Part shown: in pieces, positions 13,837 through 38,821 of the stretch | Position numbering within the stretch: the stretch's first letter is position 1 | Layout of the letters: the number at the start of each line of letters is the position of its first letter | NCBI GenBank assembly: GCA_044228405.1 | Contig: JBGAUX010000002.1 | Coordinates: 1,805 to 65,804, forward strand | DNA from: Candidatus Altimarinota bacterium | Lineage (GTDB): Bacteria; Patescibacteriota; Gracilibacteria; UBA1369; JBGAUX01 | DNA length: 64,000 nt | Direction of reading: 5' to 3' | The notes under the pieces: generated by a model | Database searches by the model: none | What the model saw: only the letters and a program-made list of their open reading frames with translations | What the model was told of the DNA's origin: nothing | Position numbers and translations under genes: made by a program

Positions 13837-13853
13837 TTTAACAGCAAGATCAA

Positions 13854-14366
13854 ATGTCAGAACTTTTAGATTTAAAACCAAATAAAGGCAGAGTTAAAAA
13901 GAGCAAAAGACTCGGTAGAGGTAATGCCTCTGGAAAAGGAACCTACGCTGGTAAAGGTGTAAAAGGTCAAACTGCTAGAAGTGGCGGTAAAAGAAGACCA
14001 GGTTTTGAAGGTGGCCAAACACCATTTATTCGAAAAATGCCTAAGTTAAAAGGTTTCCGCAATATCAATCAAGTTACATTTCAAGTAGTAAATGTTTCAG
14101 CGCTTAACATCTACGAAGATAATGATGTTGTTGACATTGTTTCACTTTACGACAAAAAACTTATCTCTAGTAATTCTAAGCCAGTAAAAATACTTGGCGA
14201 TGGTGAATTAACTAAAAAACTTGAAATTAAAGCAGATAAGATTTCTCAGTCTGCTCAAGAAAAAATCACTAAAGCATCTGGATCTTTTCAAGAGTTAATG
14301 GTAAAAGTTGAGAAGGTTAAAAAACTTGCAAAAAAGGTGAAGAACCTTCCGAAAAAAGCAAAATAA
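13854..14366 (+). CDS. rplO: 50S ribosomal protein L15
   Basis: 170 aa; ...RLGRGNASGKGTYAGKGVKGQ...; follows rpsE directly with no rpmD; Lys-rich C-terminal tail. Confidence 0.95.
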   Translation: MSELLDLKPNKGRVKKSKRLGRGNASGKGTYAGKGVKGQTARSGGKRRPGFEGGQTPFIRKMPKLKGFRNINQVTFQVVNVSALNIYEDNDVVDIVSLYDKKLISSNSKPVKILGDGELTKKLEIKADKISQSAQEKITKASGSFQELMVKVEKVKKLAKKVKNLPKKAK

Positions 14367-25207: not shown

Positions 25208-25984
25208 ATGAAGCCCAAAAAACATCTCGGACAAAACTTTCTCAAAAACAACGATACCCTCAATTTAATTGTTGAAACCGCCAATATAATTTCAAACGAT
25301 TTAATTATTGAAGTTGGGCCCGGCAAAGGCGTTTTAACCAAAGAAATAGTAAAAAGAGCCCGGCAAGTAATAGCGATAGAAAAAGATCACGAGCTTTTAC
25401 CTTGGCTGAGAGAGACTTTTCAGTACGACAGCAATATTCAATTGATGCAAGCAGATGTGCTCCAAACAGAGGTTCCTAGTGAGCCCTATAAGGTTGTGGC
25501 CAACATCCCCTATTACATTACTTCGCCAATATTAAATCACTATCTACAAAGCGAAAATCCGCCGCAAAGTTTAACATTATTAGTTCAGTATGAAGTTGCC
25601 CAAAAAATTTGTGCTCCAAAGGGCGACCATAGCGTTTTAAGCCTGCAAGTACACCTTTTTGGCCAACCAACATTAATTGCCAAAATTCCACCCACGCATT
25701 TTTCGCCAAAACCCAAGGTGGATTCAGCCATTTTGCACATCACAACCTATCCAGAATCACCATACAAAAACACTCAAGACATACTAAAAATTGCTAAATT
25801 AGCTTTTTCGCAAAAGCGAAAAATGCTTAGGAACACGCTAAAAACACTTAATTTAGACTTAAGCCTGCTCGAAAAAAACAGCGGTATCAATTTCAATCGC
25901 CGGCCGGAAATGCTTTCACTTGCAGAATGGTCTACTCTTTGCGATGAGATTACAAAACTTCGGAAATCTCACGGTTCATCTTAA
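25208..25984 (+). CDS. rsmA: 16S rRNA (adenine1518/1519-N6)-dimethyltransferase
   Basis: 258 aa; KHLGQNFLKNN...IEVGPGKGVLT...VANIPYYITSPIL. Confidence 0.93.
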   Translation: MKPKKHLGQNFLKNNDTLNLIVETANIISNDLIIEVGPGKGVLTKEIVKRARQVIAIEKDHELLPWLRETFQYDSNIQLMQADVLQTEVPSEPYKVVANIPYYITSPILNHYLQSENPPQSLTLLVQYEVAQKICAPKGDHSVLSLQVHLFGQPTLIAKIPPTHFSPKPKVDSAILHITTYPESPYKNTQDILKIAKLAFSQKRKMLRNTLKTLNLDLSLLEKNSGINFNRRPEMLSLAEWSTLCDEITKLRKSHGSS

Positions 25985-26879
25985 TAACAGCGTCTTTTGC
26001 GGCTTCGTCATAAGCATCCTCAGTGTAGCCCGCATTTTCATATGCAAAAATAATCCCGCGTGAAGAATTGACAATAGCACCCAAGCCGTCTTTGTTGAAA
26101 CAATGCTTAATATCTTCCGCGCCAGCTCCTTGAGCGCCATATCCAGGAACCAAAAACAAAGTTTCAGGCATAATTTCTCTTAATTTTTTAGCTTGAGCCG
26201 GATAAGTTGCCCCTACCACAGCACCAACAGAACTATAGCCACATTCACTTAAGGAGTCTGCACCCCAAGAATCCACAAAGTGTCCCATAATTTCGTATAC
26301 AGCTCTTTGATCGGCCATTACCAAGTCTTGCAAATCACCTCCAGATGGATTTGAGCTCTTTACCCACACAAAAATACCCTTTCCGTTTTTTTCACAAACA
26401 TCTACAAATGGCTTAATACCGTCCCAGCCAGGATAAGGCGTAACAGTTAAACAATCAGCATCAAAAATAGCCTTTTTAGAGCCATCAACAAGCGTGGTTT
26501 CGCCTAAAAAAGTATTGGCCAGCATCTCAGCGGTAGACCCAATATCATTAGATTTTGCATCAGCAATAGTAAGTAAGCCTTTGCTTTTTGCATAAGCAAT
26601 CGTTTCTGCAAAAGCTCTCATGCCTTCGGCACCATAGGGTGCATAAAACGCAAATTGCGGCTTAACCACAGGCACCAAATCGGCAACTGCATCAATAATG
26701 CCTTTATTAAATGTTATTAAGGCTTCGGCCGAAGCCTTTAATAAGTCCTTTGGATTAGCTTCCAAAGCCTCTTTTTTTATAAATTCAGGGATTTTCTCCA
26801 TTTTAGGATCAAGCCCCACACAAACAGCGCTCTTTTTTTCTTTTACCGCCTTTACTAAACGATCCGCGAAACTTTCCAT
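25950..26879 (-). CDS. pyrF: Orotidine 5'-phosphate decarboxylase, type 2
   Basis: 309 aa; ...SAVCVGLDPKMEKIP...IADAKSNDIGST... long-form PyrF; 35-nt convergent overlap with rsmA. Confidence 0.88.
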   Translation of the reverse strand: MESFADRLVKAVKEKKSAVCVGLDPKMEKIPEFIKKEALEANPKDLLKASAEALITFNKGIIDAVADLVPVVKPQFAFYAPYGAEGMRAFAETIAYAKSKGLLTIADAKSNDIGSTAEMLANTFLGETTLVDGSKKAIFDADCLTVTPYPGWDGIKPFVDVCEKNGKGIFVWVKSSNPSGGDLQDLVMADQRAVYEIMGHFVDSWGADSLSECGYSSVGAVVGATYPAQAKKLREIMPETLFLVPGYGAQGAGAEDIKHCFNKDGLGAIVNSSRGIIFAYENAGYTEDAYDEAAKDAVIKMNREISEVL

Positions 26880-26890
26880 TTTATAATTGA

Positions 26891-27565
26891 TTAAACTCCA
26901 TATTGCGAACGATAGGCTTGAATAGCCTGCATTTTTGGCTCATCTATATAAACCTTACCATCAATTTCTTGGTTGTACAAAACTTCAACTACATCATTTA
27001 AGTCAATAATAGAATGAACATTTAAGCCAAAATCATCCTCCAAAGCCTGCACGGCATCAATGCCATCATTGTTTTTTTCCAACCGATTCAACATAATCAA
27101 AACCCCAGTAACTTTAGGATTGCCATTCTCTTTTAAAATATCCAAAACTTCGCGTATAGCTGTACCCGCAGTAATAACATCATCAATCAATAAAACTTGG
27201 GTGTCTTTGTTAAGCTCTGCACCCACCAAAACGCCTTTCGCATCGCCATAGTTTTTGGCTTCTTTTCTATTAAAACAATAGGAAACCTCTGTTGAAAATT
27301 CAGAAAAAAGCACACTAGCTAAAGATACAGCCAAAGGAATGCCTTTATATGAAGGACCAAAAATCACATCCGTTTGCATTCCCATTTCAAGGTAAGACTG
27401 CGCATAAAAGCGAGCCAACTTATAAACCTGCTCACCAGTGGCAAAACAGCCTGCATTAAGGAAATAAGGCGCTTTACGACCACTTTTCAGGGTGAATTCG
27501 CCAAACTTTAGGGCGTCACATTTAACCAAGAACTTAATAAAATCAACTTTATATTGAGGAATCAT
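26891..27565 (-). CDS. pyrE: Orotate phosphoribosyltransferase
   Basis: I chose the ATG at 27565 (MIPQYKVDFIKFLVKCDALKFGEFTLKSGRKAPYF...); PRPP motif VLLIDDVITAGTA; the track start at 27631 is probably spurious. Confidence 0.92.
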   Translation of the reverse strand: MIPQYKVDFIKFLVKCDALKFGEFTLKSGRKAPYFLNAGCFATGEQVYKLARFYAQSYLEMGMQTDVIFGPSYKGIPLAVSLASVLFSEFSTEVSYCFNRKEAKNYGDAKGVLVGAELNKDTQVLLIDDVITAGTAIREVLDILKENGNPKVTGVLIMLNRLEKNNDGIDAVQALEDDFGLNVHSIIDLNDVVEVLYNQEIDGKVYIDEPKMQAIQAYRSQYGV

Positions 27566-27595
27566 AATGGGCTTAAATAAGCATAAAACAGCCAC

Positions 27596-27624
27596 ATTCT
27601 GACGAAAAAAGCTGCAAAAGTCAA
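27596..27624 (-). promoter_or_regulatory. Promoter candidate for pyrE-pyrF (TTGACT-N17-CAGAAT, minus strand)
   Basis: Reverse complement: TTGACT at 27624-27619, 17-nt spacer, CAGAAT at 27601-27596; supports the 27565 start. Confidence 0.3.
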
Positions 27625-27654
27625 AAAACATAATGTAAAATAGAAAGATGATTA

Positions 27655-27683
27655 TTGACCATTCTGTAGAAATGTTGTATAAT
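27655..27683 (+). promoter_or_regulatory. Near-consensus promoter (TTGACC-N17-TATAAT) for the small repeat protein
   Basis: TTGACC 27655-27660, 17-nt spacer, TATAAT 27678-27683; 36 nt upstream of the ATG at 27720. Confidence 0.6.
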
Positions 27684-27719
27684 GTAGATGTTTTTTATAA
27701 ATATTTAACAAAAACAAAT

Positions 27720-28046
27720 ATGGAAAACAGAAAATACCTAAGTTTAGAATCATTTGGTATGTTCATTACCGGTTTGGTAGTTGGCATTCTAGTAATTCTA
27801 GCTGTTATGCTAAGTCACAGACTTAATGTAGGTGAAGACGGCCAAACGCGTTTATTGCGAAGCACACAACAATCCACGCAAGAAGCGGTGAGAGGAATCG
27901 GCCCATCTTATACTACAAGTGGCAATGAAGCTGTAAGTGGAGTTAACTCTTCGTTAACAACCACAAGTACTGAAAAGTTGAGCGGTATCGGTCCTTCTTA
28001 TACCACAAGTACTGAAAAGCTAAGTGGAATTGGTCCTTCTTACTAA
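27720..28046 (+). CDS. Small membrane-anchored protein with C-terminal GIGPSY tandem repeats
   Basis: 108 aa from the ATG at 27720 (the track ORF starts at 27648); one TM helix FGMFITGLVVGILVILAVML; 14-aa unit TTSTEKLSGIGPSY in two copies (27960-28001, 28002-28043) plus a partial copy RGIGPSYTTS. Confidence 0.7.
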   Translation: MENRKYLSLESFGMFITGLVVGILVILAVMLSHRLNVGEDGQTRLLRSTQQSTQEAVRGIGPSYTTSGNEAVSGVNSSLTTTSTEKLSGIGPSYTTSTEKLSGIGPSY

Positions 28047-28066: not shown

Positions 28067-28099
28067 AAAAAGAGCCCGCCTACGGCGGGCTCTTTTTCA
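28067..28099. terminator. Bidirectional rho-independent terminator between convergent genes
   Basis: AGAGCCCGCC-TACG-GGCGGGCTCT (28071-28094), flanked by an A-run upstream and a T-run downstream. Confidence 0.85.
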
Positions 28100-28125: not shown

Positions 28126-31100
28126 TTATTCCGCTTGAACATCTCTAGTTAACAATAGTTCAAAAGCAGACTTAGCTCCGTATTTAACAATCAAATCATG
28201 AATCGAACTAATTTGTGAAGCATCAAAATCATCTACTCCATTATACAAATTCAATTGAATACTATCATCTCCTTGGCTCTCTAAGCCATCAAAACGTTCA
28301 TTTGCTTTCATTATTAACTCTCTAAAATCAGGCATTCTTTCTCTAATTAATCCAATATGGTTAAAAGGTACCCCTTCTTGTGTTATGCTTACATCTTTGG
28401 CCTCACATAAAGCAAGATGTCTAGACACCAAAGCCAAAACTAATAATTTATTATCAACATCTAATTTCTTAGCTAAAAAAAGAAGTTGATCTAAAACGTC
28501 ATATGTTTCTCTTAGTTCCTTTTCAGCATCAGCATGTTCCATTCCAACTGCCTGAAACAATTTTGATTCAACATAATTATAATACCCATAAATCCGAGTA
28601 CTATCCTGCCCTTCAGGTCTTTGTATACGAGCAATTTCTGTAGCAAAAGCTAGTAATTCAGAAAATACATCTTCTGGCATATCAGCTCTAGATAAATTTG
28701 CCGATGCCCCACAATACATATTAATCATGCTAGTTTCCGCGTCACTTGCTGAAACATTTGCCATATATTGAACAGCTATACTAATAAAATAAGCCTGTTG
28801 TGGACGAGGCAAATTTAAAAATGCTCCAGCAGTAAACCTAGCTGTAGCTGCACGAGCTTCAACAGCATAATCACCACTCAAAGATCTTCGTTGTCTAGCA
28901 ATCAACAAAGTAGTATTACATAACTCAATAATTCTAAACATATCGGCTTTTAATTGGTCATCAACTTGAATTTGCTGTGCAATAATAACTTCGTCAAAAT
29001 CCACACACTGCCTCCACCTTTGATGAATTAAAGCGGCTAATGTTTGAGAAACCTTAGCAATCATTATGTCTATTTTTTCTGAAGGCTGTGCTCGCTTTAA
29101 ACTTGCTAAAAAGCCTTCAGATGCACCAATTAACTCTTTGAATCTCACGTCAATTTGATGTTTTTTATCTACTTCTGAAGTTTCATCATCTATTTTTTGA
29201 ATCTCCATAACAACACTCTTGTACTGATGTTCAAGTTCACTATGTCCAATCATTAATTTTGCTCTTTCTCCAGCCTCCACAGCATCAACTCCCATATCAT
29301 CTGCAAATTTTCTTTCCACAAACATTGTCATACCTCTAATTACATTAGCCCAATTTTTAATTGCCTCCTTCATGCCATCTTGATTTCTATGCAATTCTTT
29401 TTCAATAAATTCTTGTCTATATAGTTCCAATTGAACCTCAACAAATTCAAACCGCATTGCCAACGGCAAGTGGTCTATCAATTGTTTTCGAGCAAGTGAC
29501 AATAAATGTTCTTTTCCTTTTTCCTTATCGTGGCTAAATAGATATGCCTTTGCTAAATAGAATCCTGCCTTAGCCTGATTATTTGTGTCGCCTTCATATT
29601 CAGCATAAGCATATTCAGCACATTCAATAACTTTTGCATAATCATGTTCATTAGTAGCCTCGTCTGCAGCGTTTAAAGCCCATTCTTTAGCAAGATTTTT
29701 ATCACCCAATCCTTTTGCTAAATCAAAAATCATCACTGCCTTAACATGTTGAGCCAAAGCCGGGTTTGCCTTTGCCATAATCAAGGCATCTAAAGCCGCC
29801 TTTCTCAGTTGAATATTAAGGGGGCTCCTTTGAAACGTTTCTGCCTCCATATCTTTTTGAAGCTCTCTAGCCCACAAATTATGCATACTCATATTTGTAT
29901 CAGCACTCAATATAGCTTCATCAAAACTAGGCCGATCAACTCTCATACGCATTTTATCTAATTGATCAGCAAATCTCCCATCGTCTCCAGGAAATAACTG
30001 TGAATTCAAAAAGCCAGCAACTTGTGGATCTTCAAGTACCCTGTAATCCACCCCGCTTAAAATATCAGCAAAATAAAGTAGCGTAATTTTAGGAATATCA
30101 TTCTTAGCACGGCTCAATTGGCTTGTATATATGCTTTCTGGTCCTCTTGGTAATTCACCTCTTTCAATAGCCTGCTTTGCTTGCGCAAATCTAGGACACC
30201 CAATAACACCCGTTTTTCCATTTAAAGTTAAATAATTCTTAGCAAGCAAGCTATCAACGATTATTCTCAATGTGTGAGCAGGTACCTTTGTTGCAGTATC
30301 ATGTACAGCTCCACCTTCACTCGACATCATTGCACACAATTCACCAATTTGAGTTAATATAGCTGTACTAATTCTGGCACCATTAGGCACATTGGGAGCA
30401 AAACAACGTTTCAACAAAAATTCCTCCAACCAATCAGCATATTCGCCTTCACTATTACGCAAAACAAATTCTGCAACTTCAATTTTTTCGCCCAAAAGAT
30501 CTTTCATTGCATCCACATACACTCTACTAACTTCTGACACCGCATGATCTTGACCAGATCTCACTGTACCAAAAATACTAATTCTCTTTAAGACTTCTTT
30601 ATTTAGCTTTAAAGATTCCATTAAGCCTTGCAAAACAGCCTGCATTTTTAAACCTGCAGCATCAAAATCATCCAACACCAAAATAAATTTGCCTTTTTTA
30701 CTCTCAAGAGAAGCACTTAAAATTTTGAAAGCATCTGTAAGTGCAGCAATCATTTCAGCCTCATTATAAACATAATTAGGGTCTCTTCTTCCATTTAAAT
30801 ATCTATTTAAAAGTTGAACACTAGCACCTTGTAATCCATTAGGAACATCAGCTCCAATGGCATTAACAAGCCCTTGAGCCAAATCCCTCAAAGCATCCAA
30901 GTTATCTTTATTTTTAAACGCTAAAACAATTCTATCTGTAGGGGATATATCTTCTTGAGTAGCGGCAACACGCAATACAACTGCTGTTTTACCAGCACCT
31001 GTAGGTCCTTGAAAATAACCTGTACTTAAACTGTCCTCAGAAGCCTGAAGCGCTGCCTCCAAAGCAGCCAATTCAGCTTTTCTGCCCACAAATTCAAATA

Positions 31101-32700
31101 CTTGACCAGCTTCCACTCTATCTCTAATCAAAGTTAGTTTTTGTACTGTAAACAAGCCTTCCCCTGCCGGTTGCGTCTCCATTTTAACAAATCTAGCACG
31201 CTTATCTCCTCCACTAAATTCATTAATCCTTTCATCCACATACATTTTCCCATCAAACCTCAAAGGTCCCATTTTTTCCGCTTCACGTGTCCAACTCGTA
31301 GTCACAAATGACGCAGCATTAGTTATCGAAACTTCTGCTTCAGCTTGAAACATACGAGCATCAAAATTAACTCGAGGATTATCTTTATGCTTCGCTCTCA
31401 ACATTGCAGTCATACTTCCAAGAACCAAAGATACATCTTCTGGTCTTTCTAAGGCAGTAGGATCTTGTAGATTAGTTATAGCTGTAAAAGTCCTCCCATT
31501 AATCAAGGGAATACAAGAATTCATCTCTGCAAAACGAATAAAATCAGCAATGATATTTTGCCACATTACCATATCGTTAGCATCAGTACCAAATTCAGGC
31601 GACAATGTTATAGAAGCCACAAAAGCCCTTCCAGAAGGAGCCGTATTAAGGTTCATAACATCTAAATTTCTAGAAACACCCTGTCGTTCTTTTGACAAGT
31701 CTATCAATGGCCTCTTATAAGAATATAGCGCAGTCATTTGCGGACGAAACTCTGAACCATGTTTTCTATCAACTGTGGTTTGATCATCACTATTTAGCGT
31801 ATTAACAAAACTCATAGCAGGACCATATAAGCTTACGCCAGCAGAATGCTCCATTGCATAAACACCATCTTCAACACAAATGTCGTGAACATTTTTCATT
31901 TTTTTAGCAAGAGTACTACGCTCACTCAAATCTGCAGCCATAACGAAAAGTGCTGCAACCGAGTCAGTTCCATCTATTTTTGTATGCCCCAAAAAACTTG
32001 CATACTCAGGCATACCTTCTACCTGCTGTCGTGGATTATCTAATTTAACGGCCACAACACACAAACCAGCTTGTGCCAAAGAAATAGGCTCGCTAGCAGT
32101 TTTATCAAAAAGTTTTGGGAAACCTTCAACTAATTTTTGTCCCGGGTAATTTTCCTTTTTAGTACCCATCAAAATATTTGCAGATGCCGAAACCGTATCA
32201 CGCACTGGCGCCACCCTTTCACTTGGTTGTCCAGGTGGAGTTGTCCTGCCAGCTCTACCTGCGGGCCTTTTAGTTACACGTCTAACACCGTCTCTTACAA
32301 CAGAAGTTGGTTCATAAAAAGTCTGTTGAGTGGATGTATGTATAGGCGCTCTAGTAGAAGCTTCTGTGGTTAAAGATTGGTTAGATGGTAGCATTTGTCC
32401 AATAGCCTCTATAGACAAAGCATTCACGTCAGCTTTATCTACAGCCATGTTTCCGTAAATATCAAAGGTGTAAACATCACCTCCTAAAACTGTAATCTTT
32501 GTGGTACCAGTCCTAGCAAAATGTTCTGTACTCTGCACAACCGGTAATCCACCAGGAATTCTATCATACATCGAAGTTAACCTGTCTGAAGAAACCGCAT
32601 CTTTACTACCCGGAAGTTTTCTTGCATCAGCAGCATATTGCTTGGCTAATTGATCTGCAGTCCAATTATTTGAAAGATCCACACCAGCATGCTTAACCAT
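28126..32700 (-). CDS. Giant STAND/AAA_16-type P-loop NTPase (1524 aa) with unknown N-terminal ~530-aa region and helical/TPR-like C-terminal region
   Basis: FVGRKAELAALEAAL at residues 537-551; Walker A GPTGAGKT at residues 565-572 (nt 30985-31008); Walker B FILVLDDFD at residues 672-680; C-terminal TPR-like segments such as AKAGFYLAKAYLFSHDKEKGKEHL. Confidence 0.85.
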   Translation of the reverse strand: MVKHAGVDLSNNWTADQLAKQYAADARKLPGSKDAVSSDRLTSMYDRIPGGLPVVQSTEHFARTGTTKITVLGGDVYTFDIYGNMAVDKADVNALSIEAIGQMLPSNQSLTTEASTRAPIHTSTQQTFYEPTSVVRDGVRRVTKRPAGRAGRTTPPGQPSERVAPVRDTVSASANILMGTKKENYPGQKLVEGFPKLFDKTASEPISLAQAGLCVVAVKLDNPRQQVEGMPEYASFLGHTKIDGTDSVAALFVMAADLSERSTLAKKMKNVHDICVEDGVYAMEHSAGVSLYGPAMSFVNTLNSDDQTTVDRKHGSEFRPQMTALYSYKRPLIDLSKERQGVSRNLDVMNLNTAPSGRAFVASITLSPEFGTDANDMVMWQNIIADFIRFAEMNSCIPLINGRTFTAITNLQDPTALERPEDVSLVLGSMTAMLRAKHKDNPRVNFDARMFQAEAEVSITNAASFVTTSWTREAEKMGPLRFDGKMYVDERINEFSGGDKRARFVKMETQPAGEGLFTVQKLTLIRDRVEAGQVFEFVGRKAELAALEAALQASEDSLSTGYFQGPTGAGKTAVVLRVAATQEDISPTDRIVLAFKNKDNLDALRDLAQGLVNAIGADVPNGLQGASVQLLNRYLNGRRDPNYVYNEAEMIAALTDAFKILSASLESKKGKFILVLDDFDAAGLKMQAVLQGLMESLKLNKEVLKRISIFGTVRSGQDHAVSEVSRVYVDAMKDLLGEKIEVAEFVLRNSEGEYADWLEEFLLKRCFAPNVPNGARISTAILTQIGELCAMMSSEGGAVHDTATKVPAHTLRIIVDSLLAKNYLTLNGKTGVIGCPRFAQAKQAIERGELPRGPESIYTSQLSRAKNDIPKITLLYFADILSGVDYRVLEDPQVAGFLNSQLFPGDDGRFADQLDKMRMRVDRPSFDEAILSADTNMSMHNLWARELQKDMEAETFQRSPLNIQLRKAALDALIMAKANPALAQHVKAVMIFDLAKGLGDKNLAKEWALNAADEATNEHDYAKVIECAEYAYAEYEGDTNNQAKAGFYLAKAYLFSHDKEKGKEHLLSLARKQLIDHLPLAMRFEFVEVQLELYRQEFIEKELHRNQDGMKEAIKNWANVIRGMTMFVERKFADDMGVDAVEAGERAKLMIGHSELEHQYKSVVMEIQKIDDETSEVDKKHQIDVRFKELIGASEGFLASLKRAQPSEKIDIMIAKVSQTLAALIHQRWRQCVDFDEVIIAQQIQVDDQLKADMFRIIELCNTTLLIARQRRSLSGDYAVEARAATARFTAGAFLNLPRPQQAYFISIAVQYMANVSASDAETSMINMYCGASANLSRADMPEDVFSELLAFATEIARIQRPEGQDSTRIYGYYNYVESKLFQAVGMEHADAEKELRETYDVLDQLLFLAKKLDVDNKLLVLALVSRHLALCEAKDVSITQEGVPFNHIGLIRERMPDFRELIMKANERFDGLESQGDDSIQLNLYNGVDDFDASQISSIHDLIVKYGAKSAFELLLTRDVQAE

Positions 32701-32729
32701 ATAACAGTTTTGTAAACTTTTAAGACAGT

Positions 32730-32758
32730 AAACTACAACACTAAACTAAATCAGTCAA
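32730..32758 (-). promoter_or_regulatory. Promoter candidate for the STAND NTPase gene (TTGACT-N17-TAGTTT, minus strand)
   Basis: Reverse complement: TTGACT at 32758-32753, 17-nt spacer, TAGTTT at 32735-32730. Confidence 0.35.
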
Positions 32759-32794
32759 GTTTTTTACTTGTTCGAAATCAGTATACACAAAGGC

Positions 32795-32836
32795 AAATAA
32801 AAAGAGGAGGGGGAGCTTTCAGCTCCCCTCCTCTTT
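32795..32836 (-). terminator. Strong rho-independent terminator downstream of the secreted FN3-like gene
   Basis: ~16-bp stem (32801-32817 pairs with 32821-36, one bulged G); on the minus strand it is followed by CTTTTTATTT. Confidence 0.8.
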
Positions 32837-32863
32837 AACACTTTTCTTTAAAACCATAAAACC

Positions 32864-33637
32864 TTAGTATGTTGTTCCTGTAGTAACCACTAAAGCGCCT
32901 GAAGACCCTTTATTGATCATCTTTTGGCCTGTGCTCACCTCAACATATGGCATCATTACCACTGTGTATGTTGTGTTCTCTTTCATCTTTTTCATTTGGT
33001 ACGAAGTAGCATATTTACTCAAGTAAAAAGGCTTTCCGTAAGTCGCTTCATTTGCAGAAACCTTGCCTTCGGCCACAAAAACAGCATATCCGCTAAAAGT
33101 TGCACCTGTAAATTTATTCCATCTCAATCTTGGTAAACCATTGCTCCATCCAGTAACAGAAAGACTAATAGGATTAATTACCGGCTCTGCAACTTGACTA
33201 ACTTTAATACTGGTTTTAGTTCCCGGTTGAATATATTTTCGTGCACCACCTTCAAGCTCAATATAAGGATACACTTGAACACTTACAGTTCCACCATTCT
33301 TCAAATTCTTTGGATAGGTGTAACACTTGGAAGATCTAGGCAAAGTTTTAGGGGTGTAATTTGTTAATCCACCAACAAAGTTTCCTTCTGTAACAAAAAG
33401 ATCGTAGCCTTCAAAGAAGTTATTTGGTGTATTCCAACAAAAACCTGCCCAACCATCTAGTTGATAGGCATTTACTTTAAAGCTGGCATCCCAAAAATCA
33501 TCGTTACTAAAATATTGACCATTAGCACCATGATACCAATCACCACCGGCCATAGCTAGAGGAGAAGCCACAAGTAACATCATCACAGACATACTTGCAA
33601 CTAGGATCTTTTTAAACAAAGGTTTTTGTACTGACAT
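32864..33637 (-). CDS. Secreted protein with two tandem FN3/Ig-like beta-sandwich repeats
   Basis: 257 aa; signal peptide MSVQKPLFKKILVASMSVMMLLVASPLAMA; internal duplication (...GWAGFCWNTP...GYDLFVTEG...VSVQVYPYIELEGG... versus ...GLPRLRWNKF...GYAVFVAEG...YTVVMMPYVEVSTG...). Confidence 0.75.
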   Translation of the reverse strand: MSVQKPLFKKILVASMSVMMLLVASPLAMAGGDWYHGANGQYFSNDDFWDASFKVNAYQLDGWAGFCWNTPNNFFEGYDLFVTEGNFVGGLTNYTPKTLPRSSKCYTYPKNLKNGGTVSVQVYPYIELEGGARKYIQPGTKTSIKVSQVAEPVINPISLSVTGWSNGLPRLRWNKFTGATFSGYAVFVAEGKVSANEATYGKPFYLSKYATSYQMKKMKENTTYTVVMMPYVEVSTGQKMINKGSSGALVVTTGTTY

Positions 33638-33717
33638 AAAAAATGGGTTAAAAATACAAAAAAAATGTTGACATACATATCAACGCCAAGTTTTGTCAAA
33701 TATTACAAAAAACTTAA

Positions 33718-34995
33718 TTAAGCGCGGAAAATTGGCTTACCTCCAACAAAAGTTATTATTGGCCAACCTTGTAATTTCCAGCCTTCAAACGGAGACCACT
33801 TACATTTTGTATATAAATCGGCATTATTTACGGTCCTTATTTTTTGACTATCCAACACCACTAAATCGGCATCGTAGCCCTCTTTTATGGCACCTTTGGT
33901 GGTTAAACCAAAAATTTGGGCAGGCCGAGAAGATGTTAAATAAACCAGTTTCTCTAGCGACAAATTGCCTTTATTAACCTCGTTCATTAATAGCGGCAAC
34001 ATAGTTTCGAGGCCCGGCACTCCCGAAGGCACATGATCATAATCTTGCGTTTTTTCCGCTAAGGTGTGCGGTGCATGGTCTGTCGCCACAATATCTATTA
34101 AACCCTCAGCAATAGCTTTCCACAAAGTTTCCACATCTTCTTTTGCTCTAATTGGTGGATTAACCTTAATTTTATTACCTAGCGTAAAATAGCTACTGGT
34201 ATCCAAAAAAAGGTGATGAGGTGTTGCCTCGCAAGTGATTTTTTCCGATTTATATTTGGCAATCACTTCCAATTCTTTTTTTGAAGTAACATGGGCAATA
34301 TGTAAACGCGCATCGTGTTTTTCGGCAAGCTCACAAGCCTTTTTTACAGCCAAATAAGCACACTCAACACTTCTTATTTTTGAATGAATAGGCGCATCAT
34401 GCTCATCTTCGCTAAAAGATTGTTGATTTTTATGCAAACAACCAGAGTCTTCGGCATGCACAACAATAACTTTGTCGCCCGATCTTGCTAAAACATAATC
34501 CAAAAAGTCGTAATCGGCTTCGTGGCCTCCGGTAGAGGCACCCAAGTATATTTTAATCCCTACAATCTCATTCATTTGCAAAATATTATCAATGGTTTCT
34601 GGCACGCCCAAAGCGTACAAACCAACATTTACAACAGCTTTTTGATTAGCCAAAGCCTGTTTTTCCCTTACCAGTTGCGGTGTAGTTGTAGCTGGAATAG
34701 TATTTGGCATTTCTAAAACTGTGGTGACGCCGCCTGCGGCGGCGGCCATAGTACCGCTTGCAAAATCTTCTTTATCTTCCAAACCCGGTTCCCTTAAATG
34801 CACATGAGCATCTATTAAGCCCGGCAAAATTTGCATACCAGTTAAATCAATTTCTCCACCCTCAATCCCACTCAACTCAATCTTTTCTGCCAGCCTAAAA
34901 ATTTTGCCGTCCTTTATGTGAATATCCATTTTTTTAAGACCGCTCGGCAAAAAAACTAGTCCATTTCTTAGTACTGTTTGCTCTGTTTTGTCCAT
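33718..34995 (-). CDS. pyrC: Dihydroorotase
   Basis: 425 aa; ...LPGLIDAHVHLREPG...; ...IVATDHAPH...; adjacent to pyrB. Confidence 0.92.
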   Translation of the reverse strand: MDKTEQTVLRNGLVFLPSGLKKMDIHIKDGKIFRLAEKIELSGIEGGEIDLTGMQILPGLIDAHVHLREPGLEDKEDFASGTMAAAAGGVTTVLEMPNTIPATTTPQLVREKQALANQKAVVNVGLYALGVPETIDNILQMNEIVGIKIYLGASTGGHEADYDFLDYVLARSGDKVIVVHAEDSGCLHKNQQSFSEDEHDAPIHSKIRSVECAYLAVKKACELAEKHDARLHIAHVTSKKELEVIAKYKSEKITCEATPHHLFLDTSSYFTLGNKIKVNPPIRAKEDVETLWKAIAEGLIDIVATDHAPHTLAEKTQDYDHVPSGVPGLETMLPLLMNEVNKGNLSLEKLVYLTSSRPAQIFGLTTKGAIKEGYDADLVVLDSQKIRTVNNADLYTKCKWSPFEGWKLQGWPIITFVGGKPIFRA

Positions 34996-34999
34996 AAAT

Positions 35000-35950
35000 C
35001 TAAAAAGTAATTTCAGTATCTTTTCCCATCAATAAAAGCAAAAGTGCCATTCGCACAATCACGCCATTATGCACTTGTTCAAAATATTTTGCTCTAGGAT
35101 CAGCATCCACATCTGCATGAATTTCATCAACTCTCGGCAAAGGGTGAAGCACAATCGCATCCTTTTTCGCCTGTTTCATCAATTCTGCATTCAAAATGTA
35201 AACACCCTTATATTTCAAATACTCATTTTTATCCTCAAATCGCTCCTCTTGCACACGAGTCATAGAAATAACATCCATTTCACCAATCACTTCTTCAAGA
35301 TTTTCCGTTTCCACCACTTCTCTACCGGCTTTTTTCAATTCCTCCACAATCTCGCGTGGCATTGCCAAATCTTTTGGCGCCACAAAAGTAAATCGCACAT
35401 CAAAATGTTTCAGCAAATCGCATTGCGAATGTGGCACTCTACCAAACTTTAAATCGCCCACCATACCAATATTCAAGCCATCAAACAGCTCTCCCTTATT
35501 TTTCCAAATTGTATATAAATCAAGTAAACCCTGTGTAGGATGCTCATTTGGACCATCACCCGCATTAATAACCGGCGTATCTGTACCATTTGCCAATTTT
35601 GCCACCGAATGAGGCTCAGGATGTCGCATCACCACTACATCCGCAAAAGTTCCAACCATTTTCCCCGTATCCTCCAAAGTCTCCTGTTTTTTATATGAAG
35701 AAAGGCTAATCATGTCTGGATTACTAATTACAGAGCCACCCAAACGCAACATTGCAGTTTCATGTGAAAAACGAGTTCTGGTAGAAGGTTCAAAAAAAAT
35801 CGTTGCCATTAATTTGCCATGCAACAAAGTATCAAGACGCACTCCCGACGCCATTGCTTTATCTAATTTGCTCGCCAGTTTTAAAATATTCAAAATATCC
35901 TCCTGAGAAAATTGGCCTGTAGAGAGTATATCTGCGCCTTTAAAATCCAT
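35000..35950 (-). CDS. pyrB: Aspartate carbamoyltransferase catalytic subunit
   Basis: 316 aa; ...FFEPSTRTRFSHE...; ...HPTQGLLD...; ...LHPLPR... Confidence 0.95.
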   Translation of the reverse strand: MDFKGADILSTGQFSQEDILNILKLASKLDKAMASGVRLDTLLHGKLMATIFFEPSTRTRFSHETAMLRLGGSVISNPDMISLSSYKKQETLEDTGKMVGTFADVVVMRHPEPHSVAKLANGTDTPVINAGDGPNEHPTQGLLDLYTIWKNKGELFDGLNIGMVGDLKFGRVPHSQCDLLKHFDVRFTFVAPKDLAMPREIVEELKKAGREVVETENLEEVIGEMDVISMTRVQEERFEDKNEYLKYKGVYILNAELMKQAKKDAIVLHPLPRVDEIHADVDADPRAKYFEQVHNGVIVRMALLLLLMGKDTEITF

Positions 35951-36003
35951 AGTTTGAGGTTAGTTCTTAAAGAAATCTACCGCAAAAGGCAATCTTTCAC
36001 AAT

Positions 36004-36034
36004 GGATTTGCTTCAATAAAAAGAGGATTTGCTT
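36004..36034. promoter_or_regulatory. 10-nt direct repeat GGATTTGCTT in two copies in the pyrB/carA divergent region
   Basis: Copies at 36004-36013 and 36025-36034 (21-nt period); the second overlaps the -35 of the carA promoter candidate. Confidence 0.3.
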
Positions 36035-36056
36035 TTTGAAAAGCCTAGGCTAAAAT
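36029..36056 (+). promoter_or_regulatory. Promoter candidate for carA (TTGCTT-N16-TAAAAT)
   Basis: TTGCTT 36029-36034, 16-nt spacer, TAAAAT 36051-36056. Confidence 0.4.
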
Positions 36057-36080
36057 ACACCAAATTAAACGCATCTCCTC

Positions 36081-37157
36081 ATGGTTGAAAAACAAAAGAT
36101 TAAATTAGTATTAGAAGACGGCAGCATATTTGAAGGCGAATCCTTTGGTGCGCACATTAGCACAAACGGAGAAACTGTTTTTAATACAGGGATGATGGGT
36201 TATCCAGAAGCCATAACCGACCCTTCGTATAGAGGGCAAATTTTAGTTTTCACTTATCCATTAGTAGGAAATTATGGCGTACCAAATCAAGAAAAAGATG
36301 CTGATGGACTGCATAAATTTTTTGAAAGCGACAACCTGCACATCAAAGCTTTAATTGTTAGCGAGTACTCAAAAGAATATAGCCACTGGAACGCCGAAAA
36401 AAGCCTAGGCCAATGGTTAAAAGAAAATAACATTCCTGGAATTTCTGGCATAGACACTCGAACTTTAACTCAAAAATTAAGAGAAAAAGGTGCGATGATG
36501 GGGAAAATTATTGCCAACAACAAAGATGTAGAATTTCACGACCCAAATAAAGACAACCTAGTTGCAGAAGTGAGCATTAAAGAGCCTGTAACCTACAAAA
36601 GAGGCAAAAAAACAATCATTTGCGTTGATTGCGGAGTAAAAAACAACAGCATTAGAAACATTTTAGATCGCGGCTACACCGTGCGCCGAGTACCTTGGAA
36701 CTACGATTTCATTAAAGCAGGCGAAAAATTCGACGGCGTTTACCTTTCAAACGGGCCGGGCGATCCAACAATTGTAAAAGAAACCATCGAAATTATTAAA
36801 AAATGTTTAGATTTAAATAAACCTGTATTTGGAATTTGCTTAGGCAACCAAGTAATGGCTTTAGCTGCAGGCGCAAAAACCTACAAACTAAAGTACGGTC
36901 ACCGTGGACAAAATCAACCCTGTATAGACCTTCAAGACGAGCGATGCTACATCACATCTCAAAATCACGGCTTTGCCGTCAACGAAAAAACCTTATCAAA
37001 AGACTGGGAAGTTTGGTTTAGAAACAGTAACGACAACACAGTTGAAGGCATTAGACACAAAAAGAAGCCTTTCTTTGCCGTTCAATTTCACCCTGAATCT
37101 TGCCCTGGCCCAAACGACACAGAAGACATTTTCGATAAATTTTTGGACCTGGTTTAA
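36081..37157 (+). CDS. carA: Carbamoyl-phosphate synthase small (glutaminase) subunit
   Basis: 358 aa; ...FNTGMMGYPEAITDPSYRGQILVFTYPLVGNYG...; GATase motif GICLGNQ; ...FAVQFHPE... Confidence 0.95.
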   Translation: MVEKQKIKLVLEDGSIFEGESFGAHISTNGETVFNTGMMGYPEAITDPSYRGQILVFTYPLVGNYGVPNQEKDADGLHKFFESDNLHIKALIVSEYSKEYSHWNAEKSLGQWLKENNIPGISGIDTRTLTQKLREKGAMMGKIIANNKDVEFHDPNKDNLVAEVSIKEPVTYKRGKKTIICVDCGVKNNSIRNILDRGYTVRRVPWNYDFIKAGEKFDGVYLSNGPGDPTIVKETIEIIKKCLDLNKPVFGICLGNQVMALAAGAKTYKLKYGHRGQNQPCIDLQDERCYITSQNHGFAVNEKTLSKDWEVWFRNSNDNTVEGIRHKKKPFFAVQFHPESCPGPNDTEDIFDKFLDLV

Positions 37158-37706: not shown

Positions 37707-38099
37707 TTACTTCTGCGCCAAAGCTTCCTTTTGAGCCTTCATCCATGCAGTGAAGTTTTCCTTTACCAATTTCAAAGCAGCATCAGCTTCATTTGGATTT
37801 GCTGGTTGATCATATCCAAATTCTTTTCGACAACTGTCCGACCCCCAATATGATCCAAATCTGCCTTCCACACCAACAACACCACCACCACCAATTAACG
37901 TAGCACCATTGGGAACCATATCCTTGTGATACACGCTGTCATAGCCAAAAACCAAATGCCTTACTTCACCAATAATTGCTAAAACAAATTTTACAGTTAC
38001 TTGATTCAACTTGAAAAGCTTATTAACAGGGCCACCCACAAATGAAACTTCTACTGGGGCAACATCTTCTGTGGTTTTATCGCCTACTGAATCAGACAT
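37707..38099 (-). CDS. Hypothetical protein, 130 aa, no recognisable family
   Basis: ORF 31 nt downstream of the 169-aa gene; shares the V(K/E)FVLxxIGE segment and an amphipathic C-terminal helix pattern with its upstream neighbour. Confidence 0.7.
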   Translation of the reverse strand: MSDSVGDKTTEDVAPVEVSFVGGPVNKLFKLNQVTVKFVLAIIGEVRHLVFGYDSVYHKDMVPNGATLIGGGGVVGVEGRFGSYWGSDSCRKEFGYDQPANPNEADAALKLVKENFTAWMKAQKEALAQK

Positions 38100-38130: not shown

Positions 38131-38640
38131 TTAATTTACATTTGGTACTCCTACTACTTCCTCACCAGCAGTCTGTTGTTCTACTTCCCATCCTGATATT
38201 GCCGCTTTAATTGCTACTGTAATTTCTTCCAAAATCATTTCAGGAGTTTTGCCCCCTTCTTGCAAATTTTCAAGATACTGACGCGTACTGCTATCTTTTT
38301 TATCAAATTTCACAGGGTGCATCTTGCCATCAACAAATAACATATCTCCGATGGCAAGAAGCTTCTCTCCATCAAGTAACCAATTCCTGCGATTCGTATT
38401 GGCCAATATCTCTACTCCTACAACAATTCTTAGGCTTTCCCCAGTTTCGCCTATTTCACATAACACAAACTCTACAGATCCTATATCAGCTTTTGTTTGC
38501 CCCAAAACAGTGTCAACAGTATGTCTAACACGAGCACAACTTGGGTTATAGGGATTATCGATCCATTCAACCCCCCTTGTTGTAACAATAGATTCTCCCT
38601 CACCAGGCATTTCGATAAATGGTCTAACATCAACACTCAT
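38131..38640 (-). CDS. Hypothetical protein, 169 aa, no recognisable family; weak paralog of the downstream 130-aa protein
   Basis: I chose the ATG at 38640 (MSVDVRPFIEMPGEGES...); the track start at 38736 adds a Cys-rich, non-protein-like leader. Confidence 0.7.
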   Translation of the reverse strand: MSVDVRPFIEMPGEGESIVTTRGVEWIDNPYNPSCARVRHTVDTVLGQTKADIGSVEFVLCEIGETGESLRIVVGVEILANTNRRNWLLDGEKLLAIGDMLFVDGKMHPVKFDKKDSSTRQYLENLQEGGKTPEMILEEITVAIKAAISGWEVEQQTAGEEVVGVPNVN

Positions 38641-38821
38641 TTTCAAATATTTAAAATTATAAGGGAGCAAGCTATCACAGGGCAGCACAAAATTGCAACA
38701 ACTTAATGAAGCCACTTCAATCAAGCTCCAATGCAACCATTGCCTGTTGTTTTACAATTAAACAACAAATAAGCTTGAAGAAAGCTTTTACTTTTAAGGG
38801 TAGATGGCATATTTTTGATGC

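What the first reader, a model, noticed from the sequence alone, without database searches (positions are those of the whole stretch)
28126..32700. Stand-alone 1524-aa STAND/AAA_16 NTPase with a novel ~530-aa N-terminal region and TPR-like C-terminus (Avs/NLR-like architecture)
Residues 537-680 carry the FVGR-x-AEL motif, Walker A GPTGAGKT (nt 30985-31008) and Walker B FILVLDDFD, which is characteristic of AAA_16/STAND NTPases. The ~700-aa C-terminus is all-helical with TPR-like segments. The N-terminal ~530 aa has no motif I recognise. It splits into a ~135-aa head, a basic P/R/G linker (RRVTKRPAGRAGRTTPPGQPSERVAPVR) and a ~360-aa body. An effector-like N-terminus, a STAND switch and a repeat sensor is the layout of antiviral Avs/NLR-like proteins and of large signalling ATPases. 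The gene is monocistronic with its own promoter candidate and terminator. It sits inside an accessory insert and takes up a large share of what appears to be a very compact genome.
Basis: partly seen in the sequence, partly recalled or inferred. Interest (0 to 1): 0.75.

Follow-up and report, generated by a model that had tools for sequence, protein, structure and literature searches.

The report
Orphan STAND ATPase splitting a pyr operon
A 1524-residue protein in a probable ultra-small (CPR-like) bacterium has the ATP-switch core of the NLR/STAND sensor family, but its other ~1,350 residues match nothing known, so it may be an immune or signalling sensor and no test here shows which.

Summary
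Window 28126-32700 (-) is an intact 1524-aa ORF. Pfam finds a full-length AAA_16 NTPase domain at aa 536-699 (E 2.4e-12).

The N-terminal 534 aa is a true sequence orphan. An exhaustive phmmer search of 1.84 billion representatives returned only the protein itself and one repeat artefact. The NTPase plus C-terminus also found nothing in the word-indexed search, PDB, phages, plasmids, or genome and metagenome scans.

The gene lies in a lineage-specific insertion at a pyrC|pyrE junction that overlaps in a distant relative. Its codon usage is native. It is confirmed in only one other strain.

The Avs/defence reading is not supported by any test. PADLOC gives no hit, no known effector domain is present, and no defence gene lies within 5 kb. 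Only about a third of STAND clades are defence-associated.

Both AlphaFold models were unusable (pLDDT 34 and 40). The C-terminus is predicted all-helical with one TPR-like patch. A weak resemblance of aa 213-307 to the Sco/thioredoxin fold, without the CxxxC motif, is unresolved.

Verdict: a real, divergent STAND-type switch of unknown output. It is a new variant of a very common kind and of moderate interest.

The parts
28126..32700 (-). Complete 1524-aa ORF (stop codon 28126-28128)
   Evidence: Identical on Logan contig L001.
32296..32700 (-). N-terminal 'head', aa 1-135. No homolog found.
   Evidence: Exhaustive phmmer found only the protein itself. No Pfam hit at E<=10. AF2 pLDDT about 50-57 here, the best part of a poor model.
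32191..32295 (-). Basic Pro/Arg/Gly-rich linker, aa 136-170. Probably disordered.
   Evidence: Sequence. Net charge +6 and 26% Pro+Gly. Two of the three amino-acid differences from the sister strain fall at its edges or within it, V134T and P159R.
31096..32190 (-). N-terminal 'body', aa 171-535. Orphan, mixed alpha/beta in a low-confidence model.
31780..32064 (-). aa 213-307: unresolved weak resemblance to the C-terminal half of the Sco1/SenC thioredoxin-like fold. His285 sits in 'MEHS', where Sco proteins have 'VDHS'. There is no CxxxC motif.
   Evidence: tblastn E 7e-3. Pairwise 48 bits. A 3-sequence Sco profile scores 8.8 bits, reached by 0 of 3000 shuffles. Pairwise z-scores 17.5, 6.2, 2.8 and 2.4. 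Against: Pfam gives nothing.
30604..31095 (-). AAA_16 (STAND-type) P-loop NTPase domain, aa 536-699
   Evidence: Pfam PF13191, E 2.4e-12, 48.1 bits against a cut-off of 32.6.
30985..31008 (-). Walker A GPTGAGKT, aa 565-572 (Lys571)
30661..30687 (-). Walker B FILVLDDFD, aa 672-680
30559..30576 (-). IFGTVR, aa 709-714. Candidate sensor-1 arginine strand (hhhhTxR). This assignment is an inference.
   Evidence: Regex hit. The motif assignment rests on general knowledge of STAND/NB-ARC NTPases.
28129..30543 (-). aa 720-1524: predicted all-alpha-helical region, acidic (net -24 over aa 961-1524). Candidate helical/winged-helix domains followed by a sensor solenoid.
   Evidence: DSSP on a low-confidence AF2 model. 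Composition. Generic TPR/solenoid Foldseek hits. No homologs found.
29506..29748 (-). aa ~985-1065: the only moderately confident modelled patch. Short paired helices, TPR-like.
   Evidence: pLDDT 62-83.
32730..32758 (-). Weak promoter candidate: TTGACT, 17 nt, TAGTTT
   Evidence: Read. Not called by the scan. No differences from strain L010 here.
32810..32828 (-). Terminator-like hairpin after the upstream secreted-protein gene. It separates that gene from the STAND gene.
28067..28097 (.). Perfect 14-nt inverted repeat flanked by A/T runs. Candidate bidirectional terminator shared with the convergent small ORF.
   Evidence: I7. The terminator scan did not list it.
32864..33637 (-). Co-inserted gene: 257-aa protein with a signal peptide. 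Its family is conserved directly after pyrC in this small clade.
27648..28046 (+). Co-inserted small ORF, convergent with the STAND gene. It has one hydrophobic helix and C-terminal GIGPSYTTS repeats. The real start is probably the ATG at 27722.
   Evidence: D2.

Best explanation
The gene encodes a highly divergent STAND-class (AAA_16 type) P-loop NTPase that works as a nucleotide-dependent molecular switch.

Shown: an intact Walker A, a Walker B of the STAND 'hhhhDD' kind, the FVGR-x-x-EL helix before the P-loop, and a full-length AAA_16 profile match.

Inferred from the architecture and from how characterised STANDs work: the ~800-aa acidic, all-helical C-terminal region holds the protein in an ADP-bound, autoinhibited state and binds a ligand. 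Ligand binding permits ADP-to-ATP exchange and oligomerisation of the NTPase modules. Oligomerisation brings the N-terminal ~535 aa (head, disordered basic linker, body) together as the output.

The gene is a lineage-restricted accessory gene, has no detectable relatives, and stands alone between terminator-like hairpins. I therefore think its most likely role is as a conflict sensor, NLR/Avs-like in logic: detection of a phage or other foreign protein with a new, unrecognised effector. It is not a member of any described Avs family, and the defence role is an inference only.
For: AAA_16 at 48.1 bits against a cut-off of 32.6, over the whole profile, with weaker ATPase_2, NACHT and Orc/Cdc6 echoes typical of the STAND/Cdc6 neighbourhood. 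Motifs are in place. The post-NTPase region is predicted all-helical with a TPR-like patch and gives generic TPR hits, including the MalT-like STAND 6mfv at rank 50.

The gene is an accessory insertion. In L014 pyrC and pyrE overlap, and in L012 pyrD follows pyrC, whereas here three genes lie between pyrC and pyrE. The protein is confirmed only in the window and in a strain that is 96.7% identical at the nucleotide level. No homologs turned up anywhere, which fits a fast-evolving conflict gene.

Most sensors of defence STANDs are TPR-like helical repeats and the proteins are unusually large (PMC13581612). CPR genomes may hold defence systems invisible to current tools (PMC12259885).
Against: PADLOC gives no hit at E<=1. 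No recognised effector domain appears in Pfam, NCBIfam or PHROGs. No defence gene lies within 5 kb; the only PADLOC hit nearby is a DinG-like helicase 6 kb away with no cas genes seen nearby, probably housekeeping. There is no integrase, transposase or flanking repeat. Only 198 of 589 STAND clades are defence-associated, and they are interspersed with non-defence clades. Conservation of the Walker motifs could not be checked, because no homolog covers that region. Both structure models are unusable, so the helical-domain, winged-helix and repeat-sensor parts of the architecture are not demonstrated.
Confidence: 0.4

Rival explanations
1. It is a non-defence signalling STAND in the manner of the AAA_16+TPR regulators: MalT/LuxR-type activators, SARP/AfsR regulators, PknK-type kinases and the mycobacterial AAA_16 cyclases. 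These also have an output domain, an AAA_16 module and helical repeats. Here the sensor would bind a metabolite or a host-derived cue, and the N-terminus would be a regulatory output.
For: The architecture is the same and AAA_16 is the only family matched. Codon usage is native, with GC3 0.24 like the ribosomal genes. The gene is surrounded by housekeeping genes and not by a defence island. Two thirds of STAND clades are not defence-associated.
Against: No HTH (GerE/LuxR, SARP/BTAD), kinase or cyclase domain is detected at either end. Regulators of this kind usually belong to large, detectable families, whereas this protein has no relatives. The gene is absent from the same locus in distant relatives.
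Confidence: 0.3
2. It is part of a three-gene cell-surface or host-interaction module of an episymbiotic bacterium. The module would comprise the secreted protein (32864-33637), the STAND switch and the small repeat-tailed membrane protein (27648-28046). The STAND protein would sense or control something connected with the surface proteins.
For: The three genes fill the same insertion. The secreted-protein gene sits directly after pyrC in every member of the 6-member pyrC clade whose context is visible, and in L011 and L016 a further gene follows it. The secreted protein evolves faster than its neighbours: 90% amino-acid identity and dN/dS 0.24, against 0.03-0.04 for pyrB and pyrC.
Against: The three genes are separate transcription units: hairpins lie between them and one gene is convergent. 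The gene that follows the secreted-protein gene in L011 and L016 shows no significant similarity to the STAND N-terminus, with z-scores of 0.1 and -1.0. Linkage with a STAND gene is therefore shown in only two near-identical strains.
Confidence: 0.15
3. It is a lineage-specific gene that is evolutionarily young or decaying and has no important function. The AAA_16 core would be a remnant of a once larger family member.
For: It is a singleton. Between the two strains there are only 6 nucleotide differences, 4 of them non-synonymous (dN/dS 0.59), which is too few to show constraint.
Against: The 4575-nt frame is uninterrupted in AT-rich DNA and the catalytic motifs are intact. Codon usage is fully adapted. 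Carrying 4.6 kb would be costly in what looks like a streamlined genome.
Confidence: 0.1

Closest known systems
STAND NTPases of the AAA_16 / MalT-like kind (Pfam PF13191; Leipe et al. 2004 classification, cited from my own knowledge; census in Lee et al. 2026, PMC13581612)
   Same: Full-length AAA_16 profile match. FVGR-x-x-EL helix, Walker A GxxxxGKT, Walker B hhhhDD and an hhhhTxR strand. Large size. A helical region after the NTPase. A variable N-terminal domain.
   Different: No pairwise-detectable relative among 5.8 billion (word index) or 1.84 billion (exhaustive, N-terminus only) proteins, and none in the PDB. No Pfam TPR, HTH or effector domain on either side.
Avs (antiviral STAND) proteins: Avs1-5 of Gao et al. 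2022 (my own knowledge) and Avs7-21 of Lee et al. 2026 (PMC13581612)
   Same: Tripartite logic of N-terminal output, STAND NTPase and a large helical C-terminal region. Single-gene, stand-alone unit. Accessory, patchy distribution.
   Different: No match to any PADLOC Avs or NLR model. The N-terminus is not a nuclease, protease, SIR2, TIR or other known effector. The gene is not in a defence island. No phage trigger is known.
AAA_16+TPR signalling proteins: MalT, LuxR-family and SARP/AfsR regulators, PknK, mycobacterial class III cyclases (my own knowledge)
   Same: Output domain, AAA_16 module and helical repeats in one polypeptide. Chromosomal, among housekeeping genes.
   Different: No DNA-binding, kinase or cyclase domain is detectable. 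No family of orthologues.
Sco1/SenC copper chaperones (thioredoxin-like fold)
   Same: aa 213-307 align with the conserved 'VFISVDPERDT ... DYxVDHSxxxYLxxPxGxFV' half of the fold in four Sco proteins at the same register, and a His sits at the position of the Sco motif His.
   Different: There is no CxxxC motif, and no Cys at all before residue 214. Pfam SCO1-SenC does not match. The similarity is strong only to one Ruegeria protein. If real, it is a degenerate structural remnant and not a chaperone.

Membership tests
STAND NTPase superfamily (AAA_16 type) | P-loop NTPase with Walker A GxxxxGK[ST] and Walker B hhhhD[DE] | tested here: met
   GPTGAGKT at aa 565-572 and ILVLDD at aa 673-678.
STAND NTPase superfamily (AAA_16 type) | Profile match to a STAND-type NTPase family above the curated threshold | tested here: met
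   PF13191 AAA_16 at 48.1 bits against a cut-off of 32.6, profile positions 1-161 of 167.
STAND NTPase superfamily (AAA_16 type) | Helical domain and winged-helix domain following the NTPase (the NOD module) | tested here: inconclusive
   The AF2 model predicts helices after the NTPase but pLDDT is below 50. PDB phmmer with the NOD region returns only noise.
STAND NTPase superfamily (AAA_16 type) | C-terminal repeat or superstructure-forming sensor (TPR, WD40, LRR and similar) | tested here: inconclusive
   All-helical prediction with one TPR-like patch at pLDDT 62-83. Foldseek TPR hits with TM-scores of 0.17 or less. No Pfam TPR. No internal repeats by BLAST.
STAND NTPase superfamily (AAA_16 type) | Ligand-dependent nucleotide exchange and oligomerisation | not testable with these tools
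   Needs biochemistry.
Avs / known antiviral STAND families | Sequence match to a described Avs, bNACHT or NLR defence model | tested here: not met
   PADLOC-DB v2, 5027 models: no family at E<=1.
Avs / known antiviral STAND families | Recognised defence effector domain fused to the NTPase | tested here: not met
   No Pfam, NCBIfam or PHROGs domain in aa 1-535. The structure model is unusable.
Avs / known antiviral STAND families | Known defence genes within 5 kb (the criterion of PMC13581612) | tested here: not met
   The neighbours are pyrF, pyrE, pyrC, pyrB, carA and two unknown small or secreted proteins. PADLOC was run only on the unknown neighbours; the pyr genes were identified by Pfam.
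Avs / known antiviral STAND families | Protection against phage, triggered by a phage protein | not testable with these tools
   Needs an experiment.
MalT / LuxR / SARP-type STAND transcription regulators | DNA-binding HTH domain (GerE/LuxR at the C-terminus, or SARP/BTAD at the N-terminus) | tested here: not met
   No such Pfam hit even at E<=10 on sub-regions.
Sco1/SenC | CxxxC copper-binding motif together with the conserved His | tested here: not met
   No CxxC or CxxxC anywhere, and the first Cys is residue 214. A His aligned with the Sco motif His is present, at residue 285.
Sco1/SenC | Match to the family profile | tested here: inconclusive
   Pfam reports nothing. A home-made 3-sequence profile gives 8.8 bits, above all 3000 shuffles.
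Orc1/Cdc6 AAA+ | Match above the curated cut-off | tested here: not met
   TIGR02928 at 19.9 bits against a cut-off of 181.3.

The most novel reading that the evidence does not exclude
The protein founds an undescribed family of NLR-like immune or partner-sensing receptors specific to a small lineage of CPR-like ultra-small bacteria. Both its effector (aa 1-535) and its sensor (aa ~720-1524) would be new folds or new families. It would be an example of the 'exotic' defence systems that current detectors miss in streamlined symbionts.
Probability: 0.25. Interest if true: 0.65.

Novelty: new variant of a known kind. Interest (0 to 1): 0.4.

Why it matters
[quoted passage not shown] Their N-terminal effectors and C-terminal sensors are where new biochemistry keeps being found. 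CPR bacteria carry few recognisable defence systems, and it is an open question whether they have unrecognised ones (PMC12259885).

A 4.6-kb stand-alone STAND gene with about 1,350 residues of unmatched sequence is a concrete candidate for such a system, or for a symbiosis-related sensor. It sits in what looks like a streamlined genome.

Tens of thousands of STAND proteins have uncharacterised ends, however, and singleton outliers are routinely set aside in censuses. Without a structure or relatives, this one adds a candidate and not a finding.

Tried and rejected
1. Homolog searches
- Full-length and aa 536-1524 word-indexed searches returned only the protein itself.
- The exhaustive phmmer search of aa 1-534 returned the protein itself plus P0002. 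P0002 is rejected as an artefact: it is a eukaryotic BLTP1-like tandem-repeat protein, and its score is the sum of ten copies of one 25%-identity match.
- Scans of GTDB genomes, JGI metagenomes and IMG/VR with the protein found nothing.
- tblastn against phages found nothing. Against plasmids it found only the Sco hit, plus one E=7 ATP-binding protein.
- PDB phmmer found nothing with the full protein and only noise with the NOD region alone.

2. Structure
- The single-sequence AF2 models of aa 1-534 and aa 536-1524 have pLDDT 33.7 and 40.4. The Foldseek results are therefore not interpretable for the N-terminus and only generic for the C-terminus.

3. Mobile-element signs
- There are no flanking direct or inverted repeats, no integrase and no tRNA at the insert.

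4. Possible divergent orthologues
- By eye, the partial genes that follow the secreted-protein gene in L011 and L016 seemed to share features with the STAND head ('MV.K...', 'ADVxAL'). Shuffle tests reject this, with z-scores of 0.1, -1.0 and 1.9.

5. Other rejected or unhelpful lines
- I considered an archaeal origin because pyrC's best GTDB matches are Micrarchaeota. I rejected it because the window has RpoA with the bacterial C-terminal domain, TrmD and bacterial ribosomal operons.
- The missing Shine-Dalgarno site is not evidence against the start codon, since none of 21 genes has one.
- Loci L002-L009 share only pyrC and gave no synteny information.

Full report

Yes. The window holds a single uninterrupted ORF at 28126..32700 on the minus strand. 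It has an ATG start and encodes 1524 aa.
- FVGR at aa 537.
- Walker A GPTGAGKT at aa 565-572, which is nt 30985-31008.
- Walker B FILVLDDFD at aa 672-680.
- In addition, an hhhhTxR strand (IFGTVR) at aa 709-714.

Pfam gives a full-length AAA_16 match at aa 536-699 (E 2.4e-12, 48.1 bits against a gathering score of 32.6). Sub-threshold echoes of AAA_22, ATPase_2, NACHT and, in NCBIfam, Orc1/Cdc6 also appear. That pattern is what one expects of a divergent STAND-type NTPase. The basic Pro/Arg/Gly linker (aa 136-170, net +6) is there. An identical copy lies on an independent Logan contig, L001.

**2. How novel is the rest of the protein?**

Very. An exhaustive phmmer search of aa 1-534 against 1.84 billion cluster representatives found only the protein itself and P0002. 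P0002 is a eukaryotic BLTP1-like protein made of tandem repeats. Its score is the sum of ten copies of one weak 25%-identity match, so I reject it.

These searches also found nothing:
- Word-indexed searches of the whole protein and of aa 536-1524 against 5.8 billion proteins returned only the protein itself. This method needs shared 5-mers, so it is a weaker negative than the exhaustive search.
- PADLOC, at E<=1.
- PHROGs, nothing meaningful.
- Pfam on four sub-regions at E<=10.
- PDB by sequence, nothing or noise.
- tblastn against phages.
- tblastn against plasmids, apart from the hit discussed in section 6.
- Pattern scans of GTDB genomes, JGI metagenomes and IMG/VR.

With no homologs, AlphaFold2 had to run on single sequences and failed, with mean pLDDT 33.7 for aa 1-534 and 40.4 for aa 536-1524. 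The second model predicts everything after the NTPase as alpha-helical. Its one moderately confident patch (aa ~985-1065, pLDDT 62-83) is made of short helix pairs of TPR size. Foldseek against the PDB then returns generic TPR and solenoid proteins with TM-scores of 0.17 or less. The 'all-helical, TPR-like' claim is therefore plausible but not demonstrated. The N-terminal model gives no usable match.

**3. Host and genomic context**

The window is bacterial: RpoA has the bacterial C-terminal domain, and TrmD and bacterial S10/spc/alpha operons are present. Several features fit a CPR/Patescibacteria-like organism:
- There is no L30 gene. S5 ends at 13836 and L15 starts at 13854.
- None of 21 genes has a Shine-Dalgarno sequence.
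- GC content is about 37%.
- The closest named homologs of pyrC are from Patescibacteria, Peregrinibacteria, Gracilibacteria and DPANN archaea, at 43-50% identity.

This assignment is an inference and not a proof. Genome size could not be tested.

The STAND gene lies inside a pyrimidine operon. The gene order is:
- pyrF, 25950-26879 (-)
- pyrE, 26891-27631 (-)
- a small ORF, 27648-28046 (+)
- the STAND gene (-)
- a 257-aa signal-peptide protein, 32864-33637 (-)
- pyrC, 33718-34995 (-)
- pyrB, 35000-35950 (-)
- carA on the opposite strand

**4. Is it an accessory insert?**

Yes, by synteny. In L014 (pyrC 49% identical) the order is carB-pyrD-pyrK-pyrB-pyrC-pyrE with pyrC and pyrE overlapping. 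In L012 (52%) pyrD follows pyrC.

A neighbour-joining tree of 121 pyrC proteins puts the window in a clade of six. In every member whose context is visible (L010, L011, L016, L017), the gene right after pyrC is a homolog of the 257-aa secreted protein. These homologs vary in length, up to 593 aa with the domain duplicated. The secreted-protein gene is thus a shared feature of this small clade.

The STAND gene is confirmed in only one further strain, L010. That contig is 96.7% identical at the nucleotide level and carries the first 397 codons before it ends, with three amino-acid changes: K33R, V134T and P159R.

In L011 and L016 another gene follows the secreted-protein gene, but only 71 and 125 codons of it are on the contigs. 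They looked similar to the STAND head by eye, but shuffle tests show no significant similarity, with z-scores of 0.1 and -1.0. Whether those lineages have a STAND gene there is unknown.

The insert has no integrase, transposase, tRNA or flanking repeats.

By composition the STAND gene is native. Its GC3 of 0.24 equals that of the ribosomal genes, and its codon-usage correlation with the pooled genes is 0.88. The pyr genes are the ones that stand out, with GC3 of 0.33-0.37. The insertion is therefore not recent, or it came from a close relative.

**5. Transcription unit**

A terminator-like hairpin (32810-32828) follows the secreted-protein gene, and the terminator scan called it. A perfect 14-nt inverted repeat with T-runs on both strands (28067-28097) lies between the STAND stop codon and the convergent small ORF. 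The scan did not list this one; I read it directly from the sequence. 'Monocistronic' is therefore reasonable.

The promoter candidate is weak: TTGACT, 17 nt, TAGTTT at 32758-32730. The scan did not call it.

**6. A lead inside the N-terminus**

tblastn against plasmids gave one marginal hit (E 7e-3). It aligns aa 213-307 with a Ruegeria 'SCO family protein' at 35% identity over 95 aa and 48 bits pairwise. The aligned part is the conserved second half of the Sco1/SenC thioredoxin-like fold. 'VVAVKLDNPRQ' pairs with 'VFISVDPERDT', and 'EDGVYAMEHSAGVSLYGPAMSFV' pairs with 'EDsDYlVDHSiviYLldPdGrFV'.

I tested this as follows:
- A profile built from three other Sco proteins, taken from PDB alignments without Ruegeria, scores 8.8 bits at the same place. 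None of 3000 shuffles reached that score.
- Pairwise Smith-Waterman z-scores are 17.5 (Ruegeria), 6.2 (Arabidopsis HCC1), 2.8 (Blr1131) and 2.4 (human SCO2), all at aa 213-307.

Against it:
- Pfam's own SCO1-SenC and thioredoxin-like models report nothing, even on the short segment.
- The score falls when going from one sequence to a family profile, where a true remote homolog would usually rise.
- The tests are not independent, because Sco proteins share their conserved residues.
- The CxxxC motif is absent, and there is no cysteine before residue 214.

I rate real homology at roughly one in three. If it is real, it is a degenerate structural remnant and not a copper chaperone. It does not amount to 'the N-terminus matches a housekeeping enzyme'.

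**7. What is it, and how does it most likely work?**

The NTPase core is a STAND-type switch; this much is shown. From the behaviour of characterised STANDs, I infer this sequence:
- The long acidic helical C-terminus autoinhibits the protein and senses a ligand.
- Ligand binding allows ADP-to-ATP exchange and oligomerisation.
- Oligomerisation activates the N-terminal region by proximity.

Whether the output serves immunity or signalling is not settled. Lee et al. 2026 (PMC13581612) call a STAND clade defence-associated if it carries known effector domains or has DefenseFinder genes within 5 kb. Only 198 of 589 clades qualify, and they are interspersed with regulators. This protein meets neither criterion.

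In favour of a conflict role:
- The gene is restricted to one lineage.
- It has no detectable relatives at all.
- It is large and stands alone.
- Most defence STAND sensors are TPR-like.
- CPR genomes may carry undetectable defence systems (PMC12259885).

My estimates are:
- Conflict or NLR-like sensor: 0.4.
- Non-defence signalling STAND: 0.3.
- Part of a surface or host-interaction module with the two co-inserted genes: 0.15.
- Functionless young or decaying gene: 0.1.

**8. Comparison with known families, and novelty**

It works like, and by the tested criteria belongs to, the STAND/AAA_16 class. It is not a member of any described Avs family or of the MalT/LuxR/SARP regulators, because defining features were tested and not met.

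It is best called a new variant of a known kind: a familiar switch core flanked by about 1,350 residues without relatives. Interest is moderate (0.4). A specialist would not be surprised by another STAND with unknown ends. What is unusual is that a 1524-aa protein has no detectable relatives at all and sits in a probable CPR host. Without a structure or homologs there is no testable mechanism yet.

**9. Limits**

- The exhaustive search covered only aa 1-534.
- The NTPase and C-terminus were searched only by word index, Pfam and the other profile libraries, PDB, phages, plasmids and contig pattern scans.
- The DefenseFinder models for Avs6-21 were not available; PADLOC v2 dates from 2023.
- The host taxonomy is inferred.
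- The between-strain comparison covers only the first 397 codons and has six differences, too few to measure selection.

Noticed in passing
window 32864-33637 (-); L010 2698-3474; L011 1550-3331; L016 1603-3027; L017 2623-4056: A family of signal-peptide proteins with no Pfam match sits directly after pyrC in every member of a six-member pyrC clade whose context is visible. Length varies from 257 to 593 aa, with the domain duplicated in L011. Between the two closest strains it is the most diverged gene: 90% amino-acid identity and dN/dS 0.24, against 0.03-0.04 for pyrB and pyrC. It may be a surface or host-contact protein of an episymbiont.
   Followed up: partly
window 31508-36334 compared with L010: Divergence between the two strains is mosaic. 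There are about 150 differences over 36334-32739, including a 450-nt stretch with none and 150-nt blocks with 12-22. There are only 6 differences in the 1.2 kb of the STAND 5' end (32738-31508), and the tract runs to the contig end. This suggests frequent homologous recombination, and possibly a recent exchange or sweep of the STAND allele.
   Followed up: partly
window 25950-27631 and 33718-37157: The pyr genes have higher GC3 (0.33-0.37) than the ribosomal genes (0.23-0.26), and pyrB and carA have the lowest codon-usage correlation with the rest of the window. The nearest named pyrC homologs are from CPR bacteria and DPANN archaea. pyrD and pyrK, which flank pyrB or pyrC in relatives L012-L014, are not next to them here, and no carB lies beside carA. 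The pyr cluster itself may have been acquired horizontally and rearranged.
   Followed up: partly
window 27648-28046 (+): A small ORF convergent with the STAND gene has one hydrophobic helix and a C-terminal tail of GIGPSYTTS-type repeats (a 41-nt tandem repeat at 27960-28042). A near-consensus promoter (TTGACC, 17 nt, TATAAT) at 27655-27683 implies that the true start is the ATG at 27722. It has no homologs in Pfam, PHROGs or PADLOC.
   Followed up: partly
window, whole; S5/L15 junction 13836-13854: None of 21 well-supported genes has a Shine-Dalgarno motif in the 25 nt upstream. The spc operon goes from S5 straight to L15 with no L30 gene. Both features fit a CPR/Patescibacteria-like host.
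   Followed up: partly
window 38822-41524 (+): A 900-aa protein combines a DEDDh exonuclease with a DinG-type helicase. It strongly matches PADLOC 'typeIV_DinG' models (E 8.5e-113), but no cas genes were seen among the neighbours scanned, so it is probably the housekeeping exonuclease-DinG fusion and not a CRISPR type IV component.
   Followed up: partly
window 2984-4654 (-); 37707-38099 (-); 38131-38736 (-): Further ORFs of 556, 130 and 201 aa have no Pfam match (E<=1e-5). The 556-aa ORF lies between tuf and the S10 operon on the opposite strand.
   Followed up: no
window 26891-27631 (-): The pyrE ORF is 246 aa here against 208 aa in L014, and a promoter-like site (TTGACT, 17 nt, CAGAAT; 27624-27596) lies inside its 5' end. 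The real start is probably a downstream ATG, and pyrE-pyrF probably have their own promoter now that the insertion has cut them off from pyrB-pyrC.
   Followed up: no
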